NCBI GenBank assembly: GCA_002239045.1
Contig: MPNN01000010.1
Span: 9,245 to 73,244, forward strand
DNA length: 64,000 bases
Direction of reading: 5' to 3'
From: SAR202 cluster bacterium bin127
GTDB lineage: Bacteria > Chloroflexota > Dehalococcoidia > Lucifugimonadales > Lucifugimonadaceae
The notes under the pieces are model-generated. The model worked only from the letters and a program-made list of their open reading frames with translations, was not told the origin of the DNA and did not search any database. A program made the translations under genes and the position numbers. Every line of letters starts with the position of its first letter. Position 1 is the stretch's first letter. Below, one piece after another: positions 82 to 12,081 of the stretch.

Positions 82-1074
82 GTGACAAGAATTACAGGTT
101 TGATCCTGTTAGGAGTAGCTCTTTTTGCACTCGTTGTCGCCTGCACATCCGAGCCAGAAACAGAAACGGTCTCAATTGAACTGGACTGGTCGCCGCCAAA
201 CGCCAACCACTCCGGCATCTACGCCGCCATCGACCAAGGATATTTCGAGGAAGAAAACCTTGAGGTCGACGTAAGCGTCCCCGCCGATGCCGCAGCCATC
301 GCCCAACTCGTCGGGTCAGGGCAGCGCGACTTCGGCATTTTCTACCAGACCGACACCACCCTCGCACGAGCCGCCGGCGTTCCCGTCGTCGCCGTTCGCG
401 CCATCGTCCAAAGCCCAATCAACTCGCTGATGGCCCTCAAATCTTCCGGCATAACCCGGCCTGGCGACCTGAAAGGTAAAAAGGTTGGATACCCGGGCAT
501 TGAGTGGGACGAACTGATGCTCGCCGCGATGCTCGAAGCCGACGGTCTGACCCTCGACGACGTTGAACTCCACGATGTCGGATACGCGCTGTCACAGGTG
601 CTCGCCGCTGGAACCATGGACGCCGTCATCGGCGCATACTGGTCATACGAATCCTTCGTCCTCGAAGACATGGGATTCCCAGTTGAGATCATCTACCCCG
701 AAGACTGGGGCGTACCCCGTTACTACGAGATGATGCTCATAACCTCAGACCAGATGATCGAAGAGAAGCCTGATGTCGTCCGACGCTTCGTAACCGCCTT
801 CACGAAAGGCTTCGAATATGTCGCCGAAGACGGACAACGAGGCATCGACATCCTAGTGAAGCTCAACGAAGACTCCATCGACGAATCAAGCGAATCCTTA
901 GACCGTCGAGGAATCCCCCTCCTCATTCCCGCATGGCTAGACAGCGAAGACGGCAAATTCGGCACCCTCTCCGAATCACAGTGGAAATCAGTCGGCGACT
1001 ACATGAAGAGCCGGGATCTGATCCCGCAGGATTTTGATGTGAGTACTGCTTGGACGGACGAGTTTTATAAGTGA
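82..1074 (+). CDS. NMT1/THI5-like ABC-transporter substrate-binding lipoprotein (thiamine-pyrimidine or sulfonate/nitrate-type SBP)
   Basis: GTG start a few nt after AAGGAGGA (69-76). Signal peptide with lipobox LVVAC. Pattern LDWSPPNANHSGIY, GKKVGYPG and AVIGAYW is typical of NMT1/THI5-like binding proteins. Confidence 0.8.
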   Translation: MTRITGLILLGVALFALVVACTSEPETETVSIELDWSPPNANHSGIYAAIDQGYFEEENLEVDVSVPADAAAIAQLVGSGQRDFGIFYQTDTTLARAAGVPVVAVRAIVQSPINSLMALKSSGITRPGDLKGKKVGYPGIEWDELMLAAMLEADGLTLDDVELHDVGYALSQVLAAGTMDAVIGAYWSYESFVLEDMGFPVEIIYPEDWGVPRYYEMMLITSDQMIEEKPDVVRRFVTAFTKGFEYVAEDGQRGIDILVKLNEDSIDESSESLDRRGIPLLIPAWLDSEDGKFGTLSESQWKSVGDYMKSRDLIPQDFDVSTAWTDEFYK

Positions 1075-1083
1075 GTACGAAAC

Positions 1084-1110
1084 CGCCCCTTTCGTACCAC
1101 GGAAGGGGCG
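1084..1110 (+). terminator. Hairpin directly after the SBP stop codon (possible terminator, no clear U-tract)
   Basis: 8-bp stem CGCCCCTT / AAGGGGCG with an 11-nt loop, 10 nt downstream of the TGA at 1072-1074. Confidence 0.3.
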
Positions 1111-1242
1111 CGAGCAAGCGTAGCGATGCCGCCCGGCGACGCAGGGTATGCCCAGAGCGGGTAAGAGCACCTGCCCCTTCGCCGCGAACACGCTGCCCAT
1201 TCAAACTGTCTATCCCAATTAACATTTACCAAGCAAATCGCG

Positions 1243-2295
1243 TTGCCTTCAACATATGAAGTTCAACCTGTCTCGATCAAGTTCGAGCTTCAACAAATCG
1301 GGCTTGAATCTCGAGGAACCAGGCGCAAATTTTGGATTTTGATTCCCGACGAGCAGATTTTGCCTCATGAACGCAACCTATGGTTGCTGAAATTCCCCCG
1401 AAAGGACACAGGTGAACATTGGGCTGAGAAGATCGCCGCCGAAGTCGGACGACTTATCGACGTCGACTGTGCACGCGTCGAACTAGCCAACTGCGACGGC
1501 GAGCTGGCCACGATATGTGAGTCGTTCAATCCAGGTAACTGGGACGAACTCTATGAGTACTACGTCGATGAAAGTGAAATTGCCGACGATGAATACCTCT
1601 GGACTACCGATACATTGTGGAGTACAGACATCGATCAGATCGACATCGAAGGTTCGATATTCATTCCAGGCTCAGAGATACTGGCATCAAGAATCGATGG
1701 ATACGACACTAGTCCGCAAGTACGTTTTCGCCAACGTGACCACAATGTTCGAAACATCATCAATGCTGTAAAGGAAACGATCAATGGAAATGATGACCAA
1801 GCAGGGCAGGACCTAAATCGAGTTTTGATTTCTCTCGCCTCCTACGCGATATTGGATGGCTTGATCGGCAACATGGACAGGCACCATGAAAATTGGGAGA
1901 TCAAAGACGAAATCTCAAACGGTGTCCGACGGTTCTCCGCGGCTCCCTCCTACGACCACGCATCCTCGCTAGGTCGAGAACTCAAGGACGAACGGCGTAC
2001 TCGGTATCTGGATTCAAACGGGGTCCTCAACTACTTGTGGAGAGGGCATGGTGCCGTTTTCAGTGACGACCAGCAAAAACGCGCTCCTTCCCCTCTCCAA
2101 ATCGCCAAATACATCTCTCAACACTGGCCTGACTACACCCGGCCAATTCTGCAGAGAATCGGTTCTACACCAGATTCCGAGTTTCGAACCACAATTGATA
2201 GAGTACCAACAGAGTTCATGTCCGATATCGCCAAAGAATTCGCGTACCAGATCATCGTCACCAGCAAATCAGAACTGCTCAAACTCACCCAATGA
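1243..2295 (+). CDS. HipA-like Ser/Thr kinase, kinase core only (HipT-like, lacks the HipA N-terminal subdomain)
   Basis: TTG start. Motifs: SRGTRRKFW (Gly-rich loop region), WLLKFP, catalytic loop LIGNMDRHHENW, and APSYDHASS (Mg-binding Asp region). Confidence 0.75.
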   Translation: MPSTYEVQPVSIKFELQQIGLESRGTRRKFWILIPDEQILPHERNLWLLKFPRKDTGEHWAEKIAAEVGRLIDVDCARVELANCDGELATICESFNPGNWDELYEYYVDESEIADDEYLWTTDTLWSTDIDQIDIEGSIFIPGSEILASRIDGYDTSPQVRFRQRDHNVRNIINAVKETINGNDDQAGQDLNRVLISLASYAILDGLIGNMDRHHENWEIKDEISNGVRRFSAAPSYDHASSLGRELKDERRTRYLDSNGVLNYLWRGHGAVFSDDQQKRAPSPLQIAKYISQHWPDYTRPILQRIGSTPDSEFRTTIDRVPTEFMSDIAKEFAYQIIVTSKSELLKLTQ

Positions 2296-3068
2296 CTACT
2301 CTGTTTCTCGCATGTCATGACCGACGAAATCGGAGTTGGTATCCCGTGGGACGACTCACTAGGAACGACTCCGAACCCGTTGAATACGAGTTTGAATACA
2401 TCCGAGGCGCTTTTGAGGCCAAGAATTCGGCGATCCCCCTCGCTGTTCCCGTTCCCGGATTCCCCGAGCTAGATAAGGCATACCGAGCAACCGAGATATT
2501 TCCGATTTTCCGCTACCGCGCAATGAACAAACGACGTCCTGACCGCCCGGAATATCTGAATCTCTTTGGGTTGGACCCCGACGATACCGACGTGCTCGCG
2601 GAACTCGCAATCTCAGGCGGTCACAGCGTCGCCGACACCTTCGAAATCTTCCCCGCCATCGAACCAGATACCCAAGGGCGTTTTAAGACTCGTTTCATCG
2701 TACAAGGTTTGCGATCGTCGGACCCCTCAACCATCGAACGCATCGCATCTCTCAATCCGTGCGACCTCCTCGAACTGGCCCTAACAGTCAAAGTCCAATC
2801 TCCGCAACATTCGATCCGCGTAACAACCATCGAAAAAGTGCACTTAGGTTGGCTACCAAGGCACCTCGCAGACTTTCTACGCCAACCCGACATCATCAAC
2901 CTCGCAGACATTCAACTCCGAGTCGTCCAAGTCAACCACCAAGCTCCACTGAGTCACCGCCTGCTAGTCGAAATCACTGGCCAACTGCCGACCGGCATCG
3001 ATCCGATGAGTGAACTAGAGCAGTATCAGCCGGTCTCTAGTCCTGCCAAGGGATCGGCGACCACCTGA
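2292..3068 (+). CDS. HipS-like (HipA N-terminal subdomain-like) domain fused to a C-terminal HIRAN-like domain
   Basis: ATGA start/stop overlap with the kinase gene (2292-2295). N-terminal pattern: WYPVGRL, YEFEY, FPIFRYR, LAELAISGGHSVADTFEIFP. C-terminal pattern: VQGLRSS, LNPCDLLEL, HSIRV, LGWLPRHLADFL, RLLVEI. Domain calls rest on pattern only. Confidence 0.55.
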   Translation: MTTLFLACHDRRNRSWYPVGRLTRNDSEPVEYEFEYIRGAFEAKNSAIPLAVPVPGFPELDKAYRATEIFPIFRYRAMNKRRPDRPEYLNLFGLDPDDTDVLAELAISGGHSVADTFEIFPAIEPDTQGRFKTRFIVQGLRSSDPSTIERIASLNPCDLLELALTVKVQSPQHSIRVTTIEKVHLGWLPRHLADFLRQPDIINLADIQLRVVQVNHQAPLSHRLLVEITGQLPTGIDPMSELEQYQPVSSPAKGSATT

Positions 3069-3110
3069 TTACCTTAGGTCACGCCAACCGGCTCACGAGA
3101 TAATCGACGA

Positions 3111-4064
3111 TTGACAGAAAACAGCATTTCTAAGCAACAGTTCAATTTCAGCATCGGTTGGACCGCGTGGATTGGAATGGCAGTCCTCTATGTACTGACC
3201 TACTTGGCGTACCAATCACCATACCGATTGCTACAAGGGACTGGTGTACATGTCAGCGACGCAGAACGGTTTTTGTTTCCGTTGATCCCGGTCGGGATTC
3301 TTGCAGGTTCGATAATCATCCACGAGGCGGCTCACGCCATCGCCATGGCGGCCAACGACATCAAAGTTGGCAAGATACGCCTGGAGATTTGGGGAGGGTA
3401 CACGGCGCCTACAGATGATAGTCCCTCATTACTGCATATCCCTGCTACCAAATCTTTCGCTATATATTTCGTGGGACCGTGTTCCAATCTAGTACTTGCA
3501 GCCGCATTTCTCTTTTTCGCACCTGAACCGCTTCGCTCTGATGAAATATCAAGCCCTATTGGGTTGTTTGTGCACGGTTGGTTCGAACGTGGCTTCGAAT
3601 TCAACTTGATTTTGGCGCTGTTCAATCTCATCCCGTTGTTTCCATTGGATGGCGGTCACGTGCTACGTAGCATACTGATGGGCATCTGTGGAAGTGCTAT
3701 GGCGGCGGGTTTGGTGTCAGGCACGTTCAGCATTCTTGTCGGCTCAGCTTACGTGCGCTACATCGCCACAGCGGTAATCGAGGCTAGAATAGCCAGTATT
3801 GAGGACGCATGGCCAGTGATTCAATCGTACGCCTTGCTAGGTATTTTTGCTGGAATTATTGTTCTAACTTCATTCCTGATGTTGGTGGTTACACTCTTCG
3901 AACGACCCCCAGCAGGTTCGAAGTCGATCAATTTGTCCCAACGACTGTTAACGATGTTGTTGATGGTGTCACTAGTCGGTTTTGGTTATGTTCTTCATTT
4001 CAAAGGTTATTGGGAACGATTACCCCTTCCGACCGAACTATACGCCGCCCTGTTAGGTTCTTAG
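3111..4064 (+). CDS. Site-2 protease family (M50) intramembrane zinc metalloprotease
   Basis: HEAAH (HExxH) inside a TM segment, plus NLIPLFPLDGGH (M50 NxxPxxxLDG motif). Multiple TM helices. TTG start is uncertain; an in-frame ATG at 3177 would truncate TM1. Confidence 0.8.
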   Translation: MTENSISKQQFNFSIGWTAWIGMAVLYVLTYLAYQSPYRLLQGTGVHVSDAERFLFPLIPVGILAGSIIIHEAAHAIAMAANDIKVGKIRLEIWGGYTAPTDDSPSLLHIPATKSFAIYFVGPCSNLVLAAAFLFFAPEPLRSDEISSPIGLFVHGWFERGFEFNLILALFNLIPLFPLDGGHVLRSILMGICGSAMAAGLVSGTFSILVGSAYVRYIATAVIEARIASIEDAWPVIQSYALLGIFAGIIVLTSFLMLVVTLFERPPAGSKSINLSQRLLTMLLMVSLVGFGYVLHFKGYWERLPLPTELYAALLGS

Positions 4065-4253
4065 CTAGGCATCTAACCATTCAAAGATGCTGATGGTGAA
4101 GCGTAGGGAGATGCCGAATCCCCCTCAAAACATCTGCCGCGGACAAGCCAGATGACCCGAAATCTCCGCAACCTCGCCTAGCAAACATACCCAGTCCCAA
4201 CAACCGCTTCAAAACGCTTGACAATTGTGCCAAAATGCGATTAACCTTTCGTT

Positions 4254-4481
4254 ATGGCAACTGAACCGAGAACTGACTCCCCATACGCCACGCAATTGGA
4301 CATCGAACGCCTCCGAGAAGCGACGCAGTCCGACATTGAGCGTCTGCGAGACTCGACCCAGTTGGACATCGAACGTCTCCGCGTCGAATTCCACAAGGCG
4401 ATAAACACCCAGACTTGGCGTATTATCGCCGCCGGGTTCACCGCCGCGGGCCTGTTACTAGCCGGTATCAAGTTCCTCTAG
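4254..4481 (+). CDS. Small C-terminally membrane-anchored coiled-coil protein with a triple DIERLR repeat (DUF1640-like pattern)
   Basis: 75 aa. Three 11-aa units (QLDIERLREAT / QSDIERLRDST / QLDIERLRVEF) followed by a hydrophobic helix WRIIAAGFTAAGLLLAGI. Confidence 0.55.
   Translation: MATEPRTDSPYATQLDIERLREATQSDIERLRDSTQLDIERLRVEFHKAINTQTWRIIAAGFTAAGLLLAGIKFL
4293..4391 (+). repeat. 33-bp x3 in-frame tandem repeat inside the small CDS
   Basis: Units at 4293-4325, 4326-4358 and 4359-4391, each beginning CA(A/G)T(T/C)(G/C)GACAT(C/T)GA(A/G)CG. Confidence 0.9.
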
Positions 4482-4531
4482 GCCGAACAAACCCGTCATT
4501 CCGATCGCTTAAGAATCCTTCAAATCCTAGT

Positions 4532-5428
4532 TCAATACCCCCGGCGCGGATATGCCAGATGTCCCACCATTCCCGTCTTCGCCACCCGGTAAACATGACC
4601 GGTAGCGAAAGTCACGAACAGCGCGTCTAACCCCGGACCGCCGAAGGCGCAGTTTGTCGGACTATCTGCCGGCGTCCGATAAGTCGCCCTAACCAGACCA
4701 CTGGGCTCGAAGACATAAATCGCCGAACCCGCGCCAGCCGTCGGCTCACCGGCTGTTGCCAGAATCTGACCATCTGTCGTCAGTGCCATGCCGTCGATGC
4801 CGCGACCCTCACCGAAGTCGAACAACACTGTTCCGTCGCCCAGCGTCCCGTCTGAGTTGATCGGATACGCCCTAAGTTGACGCCGAAGGCTCTTGTTGAC
4901 CGGACTCTCGGCGACATACAGGATCGACTGATCCGCCGACAACAGCACCCCATTTGGCCGGTTGGTATCGAACGTTACCCGTTTCGTGGTCCAGTTGCCA
5001 CCGAACGAGTGCGCTGCTAGGTATACCGATTCATGTGGAAGGTTGTTTGGCTGGGCAGAGTAGTTCGGGTCCGAGAAGTAGATGCGCCCTTGGCCGTCAA
5101 CGTCGAGGTCGTTCGGCATGTTGAGCATGGCGCCGTCGAGATTGTCGGCGATGACCGTCGTGTCCGAATTCGGATTCGCAGGGTCGATCTCCACGACGTG
5201 GTTGCCACCACCTTCACACGCGAACAACCGACCCGTACGGTCGAACTTCATCCCATTCGCCTGATTGGTGTCCGTCCGCCACACCTCGCTCTCGCCAGTC
5301 TTCGGGTCCCATCGATAAGTTGCCGCTGCGTAACACTCGTTGTAGAGCAGGGCGTTTCCGTCCCACGTTGGCCCCTCAGTGAGCGAATCGTGTTTGGCGA
5401 TTAGTTCCCATTCCCAAGAATCGTTCAT
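4532..5428 (-). CDS. SMP-30/gluconolactonase/LRE-family lactonase-like protein
   Basis: Six-bladed propeller-type pattern: LTEGPTWDG, PNDLDVDGQGRIYFSDP, PNGVLLSADQSILYVAE, GIDGMALTTDG. Confidence 0.85.
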   Translation of the reverse strand: MNDSWEWELIAKHDSLTEGPTWDGNALLYNECYAAATYRWDPKTGESEVWRTDTNQANGMKFDRTGRLFACEGGGNHVVEIDPANPNSDTTVIADNLDGAMLNMPNDLDVDGQGRIYFSDPNYSAQPNNLPHESVYLAAHSFGGNWTTKRVTFDTNRPNGVLLSADQSILYVAESPVNKSLRRQLRAYPINSDGTLGDGTVLFDFGEGRGIDGMALTTDGQILATAGEPTAGAGSAIYVFEPSGLVRATYRTPADSPTNCAFGGPGLDALFVTFATGHVYRVAKTGMVGHLAYPRRGY

Positions 5429-10921: not shown

Positions 10922-12081
10922 CAGCAGGGATTGTAACCGAGTTTGCCCCTACAGCGCGACTTCGCCGTGTCGAAATCCGCTATCCTGGGACAGTGGTGCG
11001 GCCACACCCCCTCCTAGGTACTTTTGACCGCCGCACCGAAGGGTTGACGGACATGGATACGACTGCGATTAGGTCTTGAAATAGCCGATGTCATAACCAC
11101 GCGGTTCAATCTCCGTTCAAAGAACACGCGCCGTGCGATGGTTCATGAAATAGGGGAACTCGGTGCCAACATCGACAAAGACCAGAACTATCGCCGCCGA
11201 TCGGTCATAACTGGTAGCGCCTTGCGGAATTCAAAAGTCCCCTTGAAATATGGGAATAGAACGATTTGCAATATTATCATCCAGTATTTAAATCGCGCAG
11301 CATCTCTAATAGGGGCATGAAATTGAATCATTCAACTAACAGAACAAATACGCCGAACAAATGGTTGACTGAATACGCAGACGACAAAGATGCATCAGTT
11401 CGACTATCAGCGAAGCAACTGTTGCAAGGCTTCATTGAGCACGTTGCAAACTGCCACTGTAAACACGTCAATAAGTCATGAGTTGTGGTTCGTCGCCGCC
11501 TGCTGTTGGGTCTTGATCGCTCATCATTTGATAGCCCAGACGAACTTCCCCTGATTCTGCAATTCCGATCTTGAGGATATATTCTCCTGCACCATGTTTA
11601 CGGCAATTTTCCATCGCGTGTTTGAGTTTATTGGCGGTTTCTGCACCTTCGTATAGCCAATCCATGGCATGAGTTATCTGGTTTGGGTCTGCATCTGATG
11701 GGTTGTTCTGTTCCTATGGCATATCATTCAGTTCAGACATTAGGGATTCTTTTCATGTCGGTTGGGTCAACCTCACTCTACACTGAAATCATAGGTCGGT
11801 GCACGCCGACCGAGACAGAAGAATTATCCTCGGTCCTCATTGCCAACAGCATGTCCAACGTGCGAGAATCTAGGACACGGAGACTCAACATTGAAAAACC
11901 TGTCAAACCCGAACTCAAGATTCCGCCGCGCATCGACACATCGCCAAAGGACATCGCACGCGGGTTGTTCAACCACGACATTGACTGGAACAAGGTCGAC
12001 GAAGAGCTTGACCAGGAATTCGCCGAACATGAACGCAAGTTGGCTGAATAGGAGACGCAGTCCGAGTAGAAAGGAACTCAG

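What the first reader, a model, noticed from the sequence alone, without database searches (positions are those of the whole stretch)
1243..3068. Split HipA-like kinase coupled to a HipS-like/HIRAN fusion protein, with no HipB
**Seen in sequence.**
- Two ORFs overlap by ATGA (2292-2295).
- ORF1 (350 aa) carries only the HipA C-terminal kinase core: GTRRKFW, LIGNMDRHHENW, APSYDHASS. It has no N-terminal subdomain.
- The first ~120 aa of ORF2 follow the pattern of the HipA N-terminal subdomain / HipS: WYPVGRL, YEFEY, FPIFRYR, LAELAISGGHSVADTFEIFP.
- The last ~110 aa of ORF2 follow the HIRAN pattern: VQGLRSS, LNPCDLLEL, HSIRV, LGWLPRHLADFL, RLLVEI.
- The gene order is kinase first. No HTH (HipB-type) gene is adjacent.

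**Established knowledge.**
- HipA/HipT kinases arrest growth by phosphorylating aminoacyl-tRNA synthetases.
- HipS neutralises HipT in HipBST.
- HIRAN domains of HLTF/Rad5-type proteins bind 3' DNA ends at stalled forks.

**Inference.** This may be a toxin-antitoxin or abortive-infection-like module in which kinase release is gated by a DNA-end or replication-fork sensor. The block also looks AT-richer than its flanks by eye.
Basis: partly seen in the sequence, partly recalled or inferred. Interest (0 to 1): 0.7.

Follow-up and report, generated by a model that had tools for sequence, protein, structure and literature searches.

The report
HipI kinase with HipN (HIRAN) partner

Summary
ORF1 (1243-2295, 350 aa) and ORF2 (2292-3068, 258 aa) overlap by ATGA, and every quoted motif is present.

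ORF1 is a HipA-superfamily kinase core with intact catalytic residues and no N-subdomain-1. ORF2's C-terminal half has a HIRAN fold. Its N-terminal half links to the HipA-N/HipS family (Pfam Couple_hipA) only through diverse relatives and natural fusion proteins, not directly.

The pairing is strongly conserved. A kinase lies directly upstream of the partner gene in 73 of 79 genome loci. The partner domain accompanies the kinase in 25 of 26 assessable viral-contig loci, 4 of them as single-chain fusions. ATGA-type overlap occurs in at least 56 of 69 loci. All segments are under purifying selection.

The module is not new. It matches hipIN of Gerdes et al. 2021, who proposed the same DNA-end-sensing abortive-infection idea, and PADLOC's PDC-M03 (both E about 1e-59). 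No experimental test was found.

New here:
- It is a Chloroflexi member.
- The canonical HIRAN 3'-end pocket (N91/P92/Y93/D94) is lost in this copy.
- The kinase 5' part is a recombinant mosaic.

Verdict: new member of a known, uncharacterised kind, of modest interest.

The parts
1243..2295 (+). ORF1: HipI-type short HipA-superfamily Ser/Thr kinase (350 aa, TTG start), the putative toxin
   Evidence: PADLOC PDC-M03A at E 1.8e-59. Pfam HipA_C is weak on this copy (21.5 bits, below the 30.5 cutoff), but most homologues carry PF07804. The family profile matches the CtkA kinase 3akj at E 3.6e-10. dN/dS is 0.13-0.33.
1306..1335 (+). Gly-rich (P-loop-like) motif E22-S-R-G25-T-R-R-K29-F-W31; its position 25 residues from the N-terminus leaves no room for HipA N-subdomain-1
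   Evidence: E22, G25 and W31 are invariant, and R27 and K29 are at least 90% conserved, in 47 homologues.
1531..1668 (+). Acidic insertion in the kinase N-lobe (residues 97-142; 14 D/E, 0 K/R), variable or absent in relatives
   Evidence: Alignment A2 shows the insertion as a variable block. Identity to syntenic relatives in this stretch is only 24%.
1861..1896 (+). Catalytic loop L-I-G-N-M-D212-R-H-H-E-N217-W
   Evidence: D212, R213, H214, H215, N217 and W218 are invariant. The stretch aligns to HipA 'LIGATDGHAKNF', which contains D309 and N314.
1942..1968 (+). Mg-binding motif A-P-S-Y-D238-H-A-S-S
   Evidence: P235, D238, H239, S241 and S242 are invariant. The motif aligns to HipA 'TPFYDIIS', which contains D332.
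2292..2295 (+). ATGA stop/start overlap, implying translational coupling of ORF1 and ORF2
   Evidence: Read directly. The same 4-nt overlap is present in 52 of 69 related loci, and a 1-nt overlap in 4 more.
2292..2675 (+). ORF2 N-terminal domain (residues 1-128): divergent Couple_hipA/HipS-like domain, the putative kinase-binding and neutralising part
   Evidence: It is the most constrained segment (dN/dS 0.06-0.11 against L005-L007). The family has 1305 representatives at E <= 1e-3. 16 of 109 diverse relatives hit Pfam Couple_hipA. hhalign to HipA residues 12-109 gives P 0.0054. In HipL-like fusions the domain lies between the kinase and HIRAN, and L109 hits Couple_hipA above the Pfam cutoff. 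Direct tests on this copy are negative.
2676..2984 (+). ORF2 HIRAN-fold domain (about residues 129-231) with a degenerate 3'-end pocket
   Evidence: The AF2 model has pLDDT 86.9. The top 16 Foldseek PDB hits are all HIRAN domains (3k2y and HLTF; probability 0.98-1.0, target-normalised TM 0.45-0.66). 45 of 50 close homologues and 68 of 109 diverse ones hit PF08797. This copy has K-V-Q-S-P where HLTF has N90-N91-P92-Y93-D94.
2985..3035 (+). Conserved C-terminal tail of ORF2 (residues 232-248, 'LPxGxxPMxxLxQYQPI'), function unknown
   Evidence: P233, L242 and P247 are invariant, and L232, G235, M239, Y245, Q246 and I248 are at least 90% conserved, in 50 homologues. It is modelled with pLDDT of about 86.

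Best explanation
The locus is a hipIN-type (PADLOC PDC-M03) two-gene module. ORF1 is a catalytically competent, short HipA-superfamily Ser/Thr kinase. ORF2 (HipN) is its dedicated partner and is translationally coupled to it. The most likely mechanism is that HipN's N-terminal Couple_hipA/HipS-like domain binds the kinase and holds it inactive, as HipS does for HipT. The HIRAN-fold domain would provide the regulatory input: nucleic-acid or other ligand binding, and possibly autoregulation in place of the missing HipB. Release or loss of HipN would free the kinase to phosphorylate an essential host factor, by analogy with HipA and HipT most likely an aminoacyl-tRNA synthetase, and so stop growth. 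At family level this is most plausibly used for abortive-infection-type phage defence or for element addiction. What is shown here: the domain identities, intact catalytic residues, obligate pairing and natural fusion, purifying selection, and carriage on prophages, on plasmids and inside R-M operons. What is inferred: toxicity, neutralisation by the N-domain, the trigger, and the target.
For: The link from the N-domain to Couple_hipA/HipS comes, with a positive control. Pairing seen from the HipN side: 73 of 79 genome loci across many phyla have the kinase directly upstream, and no third gene is conserved. Pairing seen from the kinase side: 25 of 26 assessable viral-contig loci have the N-domain, 21 in the next ORF and 4 fused in one roughly 550-aa chain that matches both PDC-M03A and PDC-M03B. 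The ATGA overlap is conserved. Purifying selection is strongest on the N-domain. The family occurs in defence or mobile contexts: between hsdS and hsdR in L080, with HsdR downstream in 12 loci from at least 4 phyla; as cargo next to the integrase in PM2-like Vibrio prophages; and on cyanobacterial and actinobacterial plasmids. Ten of 79 loci keep HipN but lack the kinase or carry a disrupted one, which is the pattern expected if the kinase is the toxic part. The published hypothesis is the same (PMC8262856).
Against: No experiment exists for any hipIN member. The window copy's N-domain has no direct sequence or structural match to HipS or HipA. The canonical HIRAN 3'-end pocket is lost in this copy, so DNA-end sensing is doubtful here. 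The window's own neighbours are metabolic genes, and the pair sits at a conserved chromosomal site in related Dehalococcoidia, not in a defence island. The split kinases in some long-read MAGs could be assembly errors rather than decay. No complex model could be computed.
Confidence: 0.55

Rival explanations
1. A plain addiction or genome-stabilising toxin-antitoxin module with no sensing role. HipN is simply a labile antitoxin, and its HIRAN-fold domain replaces HipB as the DNA-binding autorepressor of the operon.
For: There is no HTH gene in the module. The family is carried on plasmids and prophages. The HIRAN 3'-end pocket is degenerate in this copy, so a role other than DNA-end recognition is plausible.
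Against: HIRAN domains are not known to bind DNA in a sequence-specific way (established knowledge of HLTF). No inverted repeat or operator-like palindrome was found in the 168-bp upstream region, apart from a terminator-like hairpin that belongs to the upstream gene. The family is repeatedly embedded in type I R-M operons, which fits defence better than addiction.
Confidence: 0.2
2. A non-toxic signalling or DNA-metabolism module. HipN is a targeting or activating subunit that brings the kinase to nucleic-acid structures, where it phosphorylates replication or repair proteins or phage proteins, rather than arresting the cell.
For: The pair sits at a stable, syntenic chromosomal position among core metabolic genes in at least seven related Dehalococcoidia genomes. 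Single-chain fusions of kinase, N-domain and HIRAN exist, which is awkward for a simple toxin/antitoxin released by dissociation. CtkA, the closest solved relative, is not a TA toxin (established knowledge).
Against: Ten of 79 loci retain HipN without an intact kinase, but the reverse was seen only once in 26. The family is mobile and embedded in defence loci. It is a PADLOC defence candidate.
Confidence: 0.15
3. A decaying, non-functional remnant in this genome.
For: The window copy falls below the Pfam thresholds for HipA_C, HIRAN and Couple_hipA. The HIRAN pocket motif is lost. The kinase 5' part is a divergent mosaic.
Against: Both ORFs are intact. All catalytic residues are present. dN/dS is 0.06-0.41 in all segments. 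ORF2 is found with an identical protein sequence, next to the kinase gene, on four independent contigs. The ATGA coupling is preserved.
Confidence: 0.05

Closest known systems
hipIN modules (HipI kinase + HipN), Gerdes, Baerentsen & Brodersen, mBio 2021 (PMC8262856)
   Same: A short kinase that lacks N-subdomain-1, with the Gly-rich loop near the N-terminus. The gene order is kinase first. [quoted passage not shown] There is no HTH antitoxin. The mechanistic hypothesis is the same.
   Different: Their set had only 14 hipIN modules, and the word Chloroflexi does not occur in their supplements. ORF1 is 350 aa, against 279-321 aa, because of a 46-residue acidic insertion. This copy's HIRAN domain lacks the DNA-end pocket motif. 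Placement in their clade XI tree was not tested.
PADLOC-DB candidate system PDC-M03 (A + B)
   Same: ORF1 hits PDC-M03A at 1.8e-59. ORF2 hits PDC-M03B at 1.4e-59 over its full length. The two genes are adjacent.
   Different: PDC-M03 is only a candidate and has no reported phenotype. The window locus is not in a defence island.
HipL single-chain kinases (kinase, HipS-like domain and HIRAN in one protein)
   Same: The same three domains in the same order. Viral-contig examples L100, L109, L112 and L113 match both PDC-M03A and PDC-M03B.
   Different: In the window the domains are split into two translationally coupled genes.
HipBST (E. coli O127, Legionella, Haemophilus)
   Same: The kinase lacks N-subdomain-1, and that subdomain is supplied in trans by a separate protein that neutralises the kinase.
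   Different: HipBST has three genes, including the HTH protein HipB. HipS is about 100 aa with no HIRAN domain, and it is encoded upstream of the kinase. True HipS chains are found by a HipA-N profile, but ORF2's N-domain is not.
HLTF/Rad5-type HIRAN domains and the bacterial HIRAN protein lp_0118 (PDB 3k2y)
   Same: The fold, and the sequence blocks GLR, (H/N)AIxV and G-aromatic-L-P-R.
   Different: HLTF residues N91, P92, Y93 and D94, which form the 3'-OH pocket, are V, Q, S and P in this copy.

Membership tests
hipIN (Gerdes et al. 2021) | Short HipA-homologous kinase that lacks N-subdomain-1, with the Gly-rich loop close to the N-terminus | tested here: met
   G25 lies in 'ESRGTRRKFW'. 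In a PDC-M03A relative, HipA_C starts at about residue 21. ORF1 has no Couple_hipA hit.
hipIN (Gerdes et al. 2021) | Conserved core kinase motifs (Gly-rich loop, catalytic motif, Mg-binding motif, activation loop) | tested here: met
   G25/K29, D212/N217 and D238 are invariant and align to HipA D309, N314 and D332. The activation loop was not mapped separately.
hipIN (Gerdes et al. 2021) | Partner gene immediately downstream of the kinase, with no HTH (HipB-type) gene in the module | tested here: met
   ATGA overlap. The neighbours are an NMT1 protein and an M50 peptidase. 73 of 79 related loci have the same order.
hipIN (Gerdes et al. 2021) | C-terminal HIRAN domain in the partner | tested here: met
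   The top 16 Foldseek hits are all HIRAN domains. 45 of 50 homologues hit PF08797 at E <= 10, and 38 of 50 at E <= 0.01. This copy itself is below the Pfam threshold.
hipIN (Gerdes et al. 2021) | N-terminal HipS-like (Couple_hipA) domain in the partner | tested here: inconclusive
   Direct tests are negative: Pfam, PDB profile and Foldseek. Indirect tests are positive: 16 of 109 family representatives hit Couple_hipA, the equivalent domain of fusion protein L109 hits Couple_hipA above the cutoff, and hhalign gives P 0.0054 over 97 columns.
hipIN (Gerdes et al. 2021) | [quoted passage not shown] | not tested
   The reference sequences of their Table S1 were not available to the tools, so no tree was built.
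PADLOC PDC-M03 | Adjacent genes matching the PDC-M03A and PDC-M03B models | tested here: met
   E 1.8e-59 and 1.4e-59, with full-length coverage for B.
HIRAN domain (HLTF type, binds DNA 3' ends) | 3'-OH pocket residues equivalent to HLTF N91, P92, Y93 and D94 | tested here: not met
   The window copy has V168, Q169, S170 and P171. Y93 and D94 are absent in all 50 close relatives. The broad family keeps N91 in 81 of 109 and D94 in 54 of 109.
HipBST | Tricistronic operon with an HTH HipB, a roughly 100-aa HipS and HipT | tested here: not met
   There are only two genes, no HTH, and the partner is 258 aa with a HIRAN domain.
Canonical HipBA | Full-length HipA with N-subdomain-1, preceded by hipB | tested here: not met
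   The kinase has no N-subdomain and there is no upstream HTH gene.
Type II toxin-antitoxin / abortive-infection system (functional class) | The kinase is toxic, the partner neutralises it, and the pair protects against phage | not testable with these tools
   There is only contextual evidence. No experimental report was found.

The most novel reading that the evidence does not exclude
In this Dehalococcoidia subclade the HIRAN-fold domain of HipN has lost the canonical DNA 3'-end pocket while remaining under purifying selection. The module also recombines at domain boundaries: kinase N-lobe, then kinase C-lobe plus HipN N-domain, then HIRAN. This would mean the HIRAN scaffold has been re-purposed to sense a different trigger, and that kinase and sensor domains are being shuffled in an arms race. 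More broadly, hipIN would be the first kinase-effector abortive-infection system gated by a HIRAN-fold sensor.
Probability: 0.25. Interest if true: 0.6.

Novelty: new member of a known kind. Interest (0 to 1): 0.3.

Why it matters
The hipIN/PDC-M03 family is widespread. The N-domain has 1305 representatives at 50% identity, spread over many phyla, prophages, plasmids and R-M operons, yet nothing about its function has been tested. It would be a kinase-based growth-arrest system controlled by a HIRAN-fold module instead of an HTH antitoxin. This locus adds no new principle. It does extend the family to Chloroflexi. It also shows that the supposed DNA-end pocket is dispensable in some members, and it gives natural variants useful for experiments: pocket present or absent, acidic insertion present or absent, split or fused. 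The pocket variation matters for anyone who plans to test the DNA-end-sensing hypothesis.

Tried and rejected
- **Is the downstream M50 peptidase (3111-4064) a third component?** Rejected. It follows the pair in only 3 of 79 loci and is part of an indel block that is absent from close relatives. It has no PADLOC hit.
- **Is there any universal third gene, such as the DEDD diDNase reported next to actinobacterial HipA/HIRAN pairs (PMC11706625)?** None was found by clustering the flanking ORFs.
- **Direct HipS/HipA similarity of ORF2's N-domain.** All of these gave nothing: phmmer and profile searches against the PDB, Pfam at E <= 10 on 50 homologues, hhalign against a single HipA sequence (shown to be underpowered), a shallow profile-profile comparison, and Foldseek of the N-domain model against the PDB and BFVD.
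- **The last homology search, on the HipA N-subdomain,** returned mostly near-identical E. coli fragments. It was useful only as a positive control.
- **Promoter, terminator and operator scans of 900-4700** found nothing above chance.
- **Literature hits for 'HIRAN' plus 'phage defense'** were mostly the surname Hirano.
- **The exhaustive N-domain search** was saturated by HipN-type proteins in its top 150, so it did not show remote architectures by itself.
Full report
**Observation.** The junction reads ACC CAA TGA with ATG at 2292-2294, so the ATGA overlap is real. Every quoted peptide motif is in the translations. Both start codons are supported by homologues: ORF1 relatives begin 'MPSTYEV...' and NCBI annotates the same 350-aa product, and ORF2 has an invariant M1 and a conserved 'MTTLYLAWQD' N-terminus. 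The window is contig JAPOPN010000019.1 of a Chloroflexi MAG (GCA_026712855.1), and the same locus occurs on three JGI metagenome contigs. The upstream neighbour is an NMT1/THI5 solute-binding protein that ends an ABC-transporter operon. Downstream is an M50 peptidase. There is no HTH gene. The 'AT-richer' remark holds for ORF1 (GC 0.493) and the M50 block (0.49), but not for ORF2 (0.544, against a window mean of 0.549).

**ORF1 is a HipA-superfamily kinase core.** On this copy Pfam HipA_C reaches only 21.5 bits, below its 30.5-bit cutoff. However, PADLOC PDC-M03A matches at 1.8e-59. Most of the 120 listed homologues carry PF07804. The family profile hits the HipA-like kinase CtkA (3akj) at 3.6e-10. 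In a 47-sequence alignment the Gly-rich loop (E22, G25, K29, W31), K50, the catalytic loop LIGNMDRHHENW (D212, N217) and the Mg motif PSYDHASS (D238) are invariant or nearly so. The last two motifs align to HipA D309/N314 and D332. Because the Gly-rich loop lies 25 residues from the N-terminus, there is no N-subdomain-1. ORF1 is longer than its relatives because of a 46-residue acidic insertion (residues 97-142; 14 D/E and no K/R).

**The ORF2 C-terminal half is a HIRAN fold.** Pfam HIRAN misses this copy. It hits 38 of 50 close homologues at E <= 0.01 and 45 of 50 at E <= 10, and 68 of 109 diverse representatives, with a best E of 2.2e-14. An AlphaFold2 model of ORF2 (pLDDT 86.9, pTM 0.85) has HIRAN domains as its top 16 PDB matches: lp_0118 (3k2y) and HLTF, with probability 0.98-1.00 and target-normalised TM 0.45-0.66. 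The deep family profile also finds these chains by sequence (3k2y at 4e-3, HLTF at 2e-2).

**The HIRAN 3'-end pocket is lost in this copy.** I verified my recalled HLTF sequence against the PDB and took the register from hhalign. The blocks GLR (HLTF R71), (H/N)AIxV and G-aromatic-L-P-R (HLTF K113) are kept. The HLTF pocket residues N90-N91-P92-Y93-D94 are K-V-Q-S-P in the window copy. Y93 and D94 are absent from all 50 close relatives. The broad family retains N91 in 81 of 109, P92 in 62 and D94 in 54. The fold is therefore secure, but binding of a DNA 3' end by this particular copy is doubtful.

**The ORF2 N-terminal half: the HipS-like question.** Direct tests all failed:
- No Couple_hipA hit in 50 homologues, even at E <= 10.
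- No HipA or HipS chain from the family profile against the PDB.
- No HipS or HipA among the top 50 Foldseek matches of a confident N-domain model (pLDDT 87), and nothing in BFVD either.

As a control, a shallow HipA-N profile readily finds true HipS chains (7vkb_B at 3.9e-5, 7ab3_B at 1.7e-3, 7czo at 2e-3). Genuine HipS is therefore detectable and was present in the libraries.

Indirect evidence reversed the picture:
- Starting from the kinase, viral contigs yielded four fused ORFs of about 550 aa in which my N-domain HMM aligns over its full length (positions 3-123 of 126) between the kinase and HIRAN.
- In one of these (L109), Pfam calls that same segment Couple_hipA at 26.6 bits, above the 22.5-bit cutoff.
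- Both PADLOC models, M03A and M03B, hit the single fused chain.
- 16 of 109 diverse two-domain representatives, retrieved by an exhaustive profile search (1305 hits at E <= 1e-3), hit Couple_hipA directly (best 1.6e-4).
- With that deeper alignment, hhalign aligns ORF2 residues 18-125 to HipA residues 12-109 over 97 columns at P = 0.0054.

I conclude that the N-domain is a divergent member of the HipA-N/HipS family at family level, and that this copy is too diverged to show it alone. The Foldseek negative remains unexplained.

**Conservation of the pairing.**
- A kinase lies immediately upstream on the same strand in 73 of 79 genome loci that encode a HipN relative. These span Dehalococcoidia/SAR202, Vicinamibacterales, Gamma- and Alphaproteobacteria, Nitrospirota, Cyanobacteria, Binatia, Verrucomicrobiota and others.
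- No third gene is universal. The M50 peptidase follows in only 3 loci and belongs to an indel block, window 3037-4531.
- From the kinase side, 25 of 26 assessable viral-contig loci carry the N-domain, either in the next ORF or fused.
- The 4-nt ATGA overlap is present in 52 of 69 loci, and a 1-nt overlap in 4 more.
- All segments are under purifying selection, strongest on the N-domain (dN/dS 0.06-0.11 against L005-L007), weaker on HIRAN (0.21-0.41) and on the kinase (0.13-0.33).

**Context.** The window's own locus sits among metabolic genes, at a site shared by at least seven related Dehalococcoidia genomes. It is not a defence island. Elsewhere the family is mobile and linked to defence:
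- It lies between hsdS and hsdR of a type I R-M operon in L080, and HsdR is directly downstream in 12 loci from at least four phyla.
- It is cargo next to the integrase in PM2-like temperate Vibrio phages, again with a 4-nt overlap.
- It occurs on cyanobacterial and actinobacterial plasmids.
- Ten of 79 loci keep HipN but have no kinase or a split or truncated one. Only 1 of 26 kinase loci lacked the partner. This asymmetry is what a toxic kinase would produce, although assembly errors cannot be excluded.

**Comparison with what is known.** Gerdes, Baerentsen and Brodersen (mBio 2021, PMC8262856) defined hipIN as follows: short HipI kinases of clade XI without N-subdomain-1, followed by HipN, which has a HipS-like domain plus HIRAN. 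They also described HipL as the single-chain version. They proposed that HIRAN senses phage DNA ends and releases the kinase for abortive infection. Their set held 14 hipIN modules, and Chloroflexi is not mentioned in their supplements. PADLOC lists the pair as candidate PDC-M03 (usage in PMC13245101). A 2025 paper still calls the HipA/HIRAN link uninvestigated (PMC11706625). No experimental study turned up.

**Mechanism.** The best-supported reading (confidence 0.55) is a kinase toxin held in check by HipN's N-domain, with the HIRAN-fold domain as the regulatory input. Toxicity, neutralisation, trigger and target are all inferred. The rivals are:
- A plain addiction module in which HIRAN acts as autorepressor (0.2).
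- A non-toxic targeting or signalling module (0.15).
- A decaying remnant (0.05, contradicted by selection and intact motifs).

**What is new.** Relative to its closest syntenic relatives, the locus is a mosaic:

| Segment | Identity to close relatives |
|---|---|
| Flanks and window 1936-3031 (DNA) | 87-94% |
| Kinase residues 1-231 | 47-60% (dS saturated) |
| Kinase residues 232-350 | 81-86% |
| HipN N-domain | 90-98% |
| HipN HIRAN domain | 62-86% |

The DNA identities are and the saturated dS. In L016 the N-domain has dS 0.02 but HIRAN has dS 0.70. These patterns point to recombination at domain boundaries.

**Verdict.** This is a real and correctly described feature. It is a new (Chloroflexi) member of a known but experimentally uncharacterised kind. 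Interest is 0.3.

Noticed in passing
window 1070-1936 (intergenic region plus ORF1 residues 1-231): The locus is a recombinant mosaic. Against syntenic Dehalococcoidia (L005, L006, L016) the flanks and window 1936-3031 are 87-94% identical in DNA. This stretch is only about 68% identical or cannot be aligned. At protein level it is 47-60% identical, with dS saturated. L007 carries the same allele, at about 82% identity throughout.
   Followed up: partly
L016:6001-6750 compared with window 2292-3068: There is a second apparent breakpoint inside the partner gene. The HipN N-domain is nearly identical at synonymous sites (dS 0.02), while the HIRAN domain has dS 0.70. This suggests domain-level exchange.
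   Followed up: partly
window 3037-4531: The M50 (site-2-protease-like) peptidase gene (3111-4064) and a 75-aa coiled-coil-like ORF with 'DIERLR' repeats (4254-4481) form a low-GC indel block. The block is present in the window, L005 and L014, and absent from L006, L016 and L007. It has no PADLOC hit.
   Followed up: partly
window 1084-1110: A 12-bp GC-rich hairpin (CGCCCCTTTCGT/ACGGAAGGGGCG, 3-nt loop) lies 10 nt after the stop of the NMT1 gene and has no T-tract. It is probably the terminator of the upstream ABC-transporter operon, which implies that the kinase operon has its own promoter in 1111-1242.
   Followed up: no
L046, L053, L067, L068, L070, L081; L012, L020, L022, L082: These are orphan HipN genes with no kinase within about 6 kb (for example in the cyanobacteria Cylindrospermum and Anabaenopsis). 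In other loci the kinase is split into two ORFs or reduced to a roughly 77-aa remnant. In L070 the orphan follows genes for Peptidase_M78, a PurA-like/AAA protein and DUF7002, and precedes hsdR.
   Followed up: partly
L100:3689-5335, L109:3686-5344, L112, L113 (IMG/VR viral contigs): These are single-chain HipL-like proteins of about 550 aa that contain kinase, Couple_hipA-like domain and HIRAN. Unlike the window copy, they retain the canonical HIRAN 'NEHDPNAI' / 'NEVDTNAI' motif.
   Followed up: partly
L086:10953-12646 (Vibrio phage 10N.286.55.A12_PE001, PQ189359): PM2-like (Vinavirales) temperate elements of Vibrio cyclitrophicus carry a PDC-M03A/B pair (E 9e-115 and 3e-87). The pair overlaps by 4 nt and lies between the lysis genes and the integrase. 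This is a cultivable system in which the family could be tested.
   Followed up: partly
window 2985-3035 (ORF2 residues 232-248): Beyond the HIRAN domain there is a strongly conserved C-terminal tail, 'LPxGxxPMxxLxQYQPI', with P233, L242 and P247 invariant. Its role is unknown. It could be an interaction peptide.
   Followed up: no
window 2292-2675 (ORF2 N-domain model mfdbf69f53b2e): This is unexplained. A confident AF2 model (pLDDT 87) has no Foldseek match to HipS or HipA N-subdomain-1 in the PDB, although sequence evidence links the family to Couple_hipA. Its order of secondary-structure elements (three strands, helix, strand, three helices, strand) does resemble what I recall of HipA residues 1-110.
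   Followed up: partly
window 11250-11750: The GC content dips sharply to 0.44, against about 0.55-0.60 nearby. I did not examine this.
   Followed up: no
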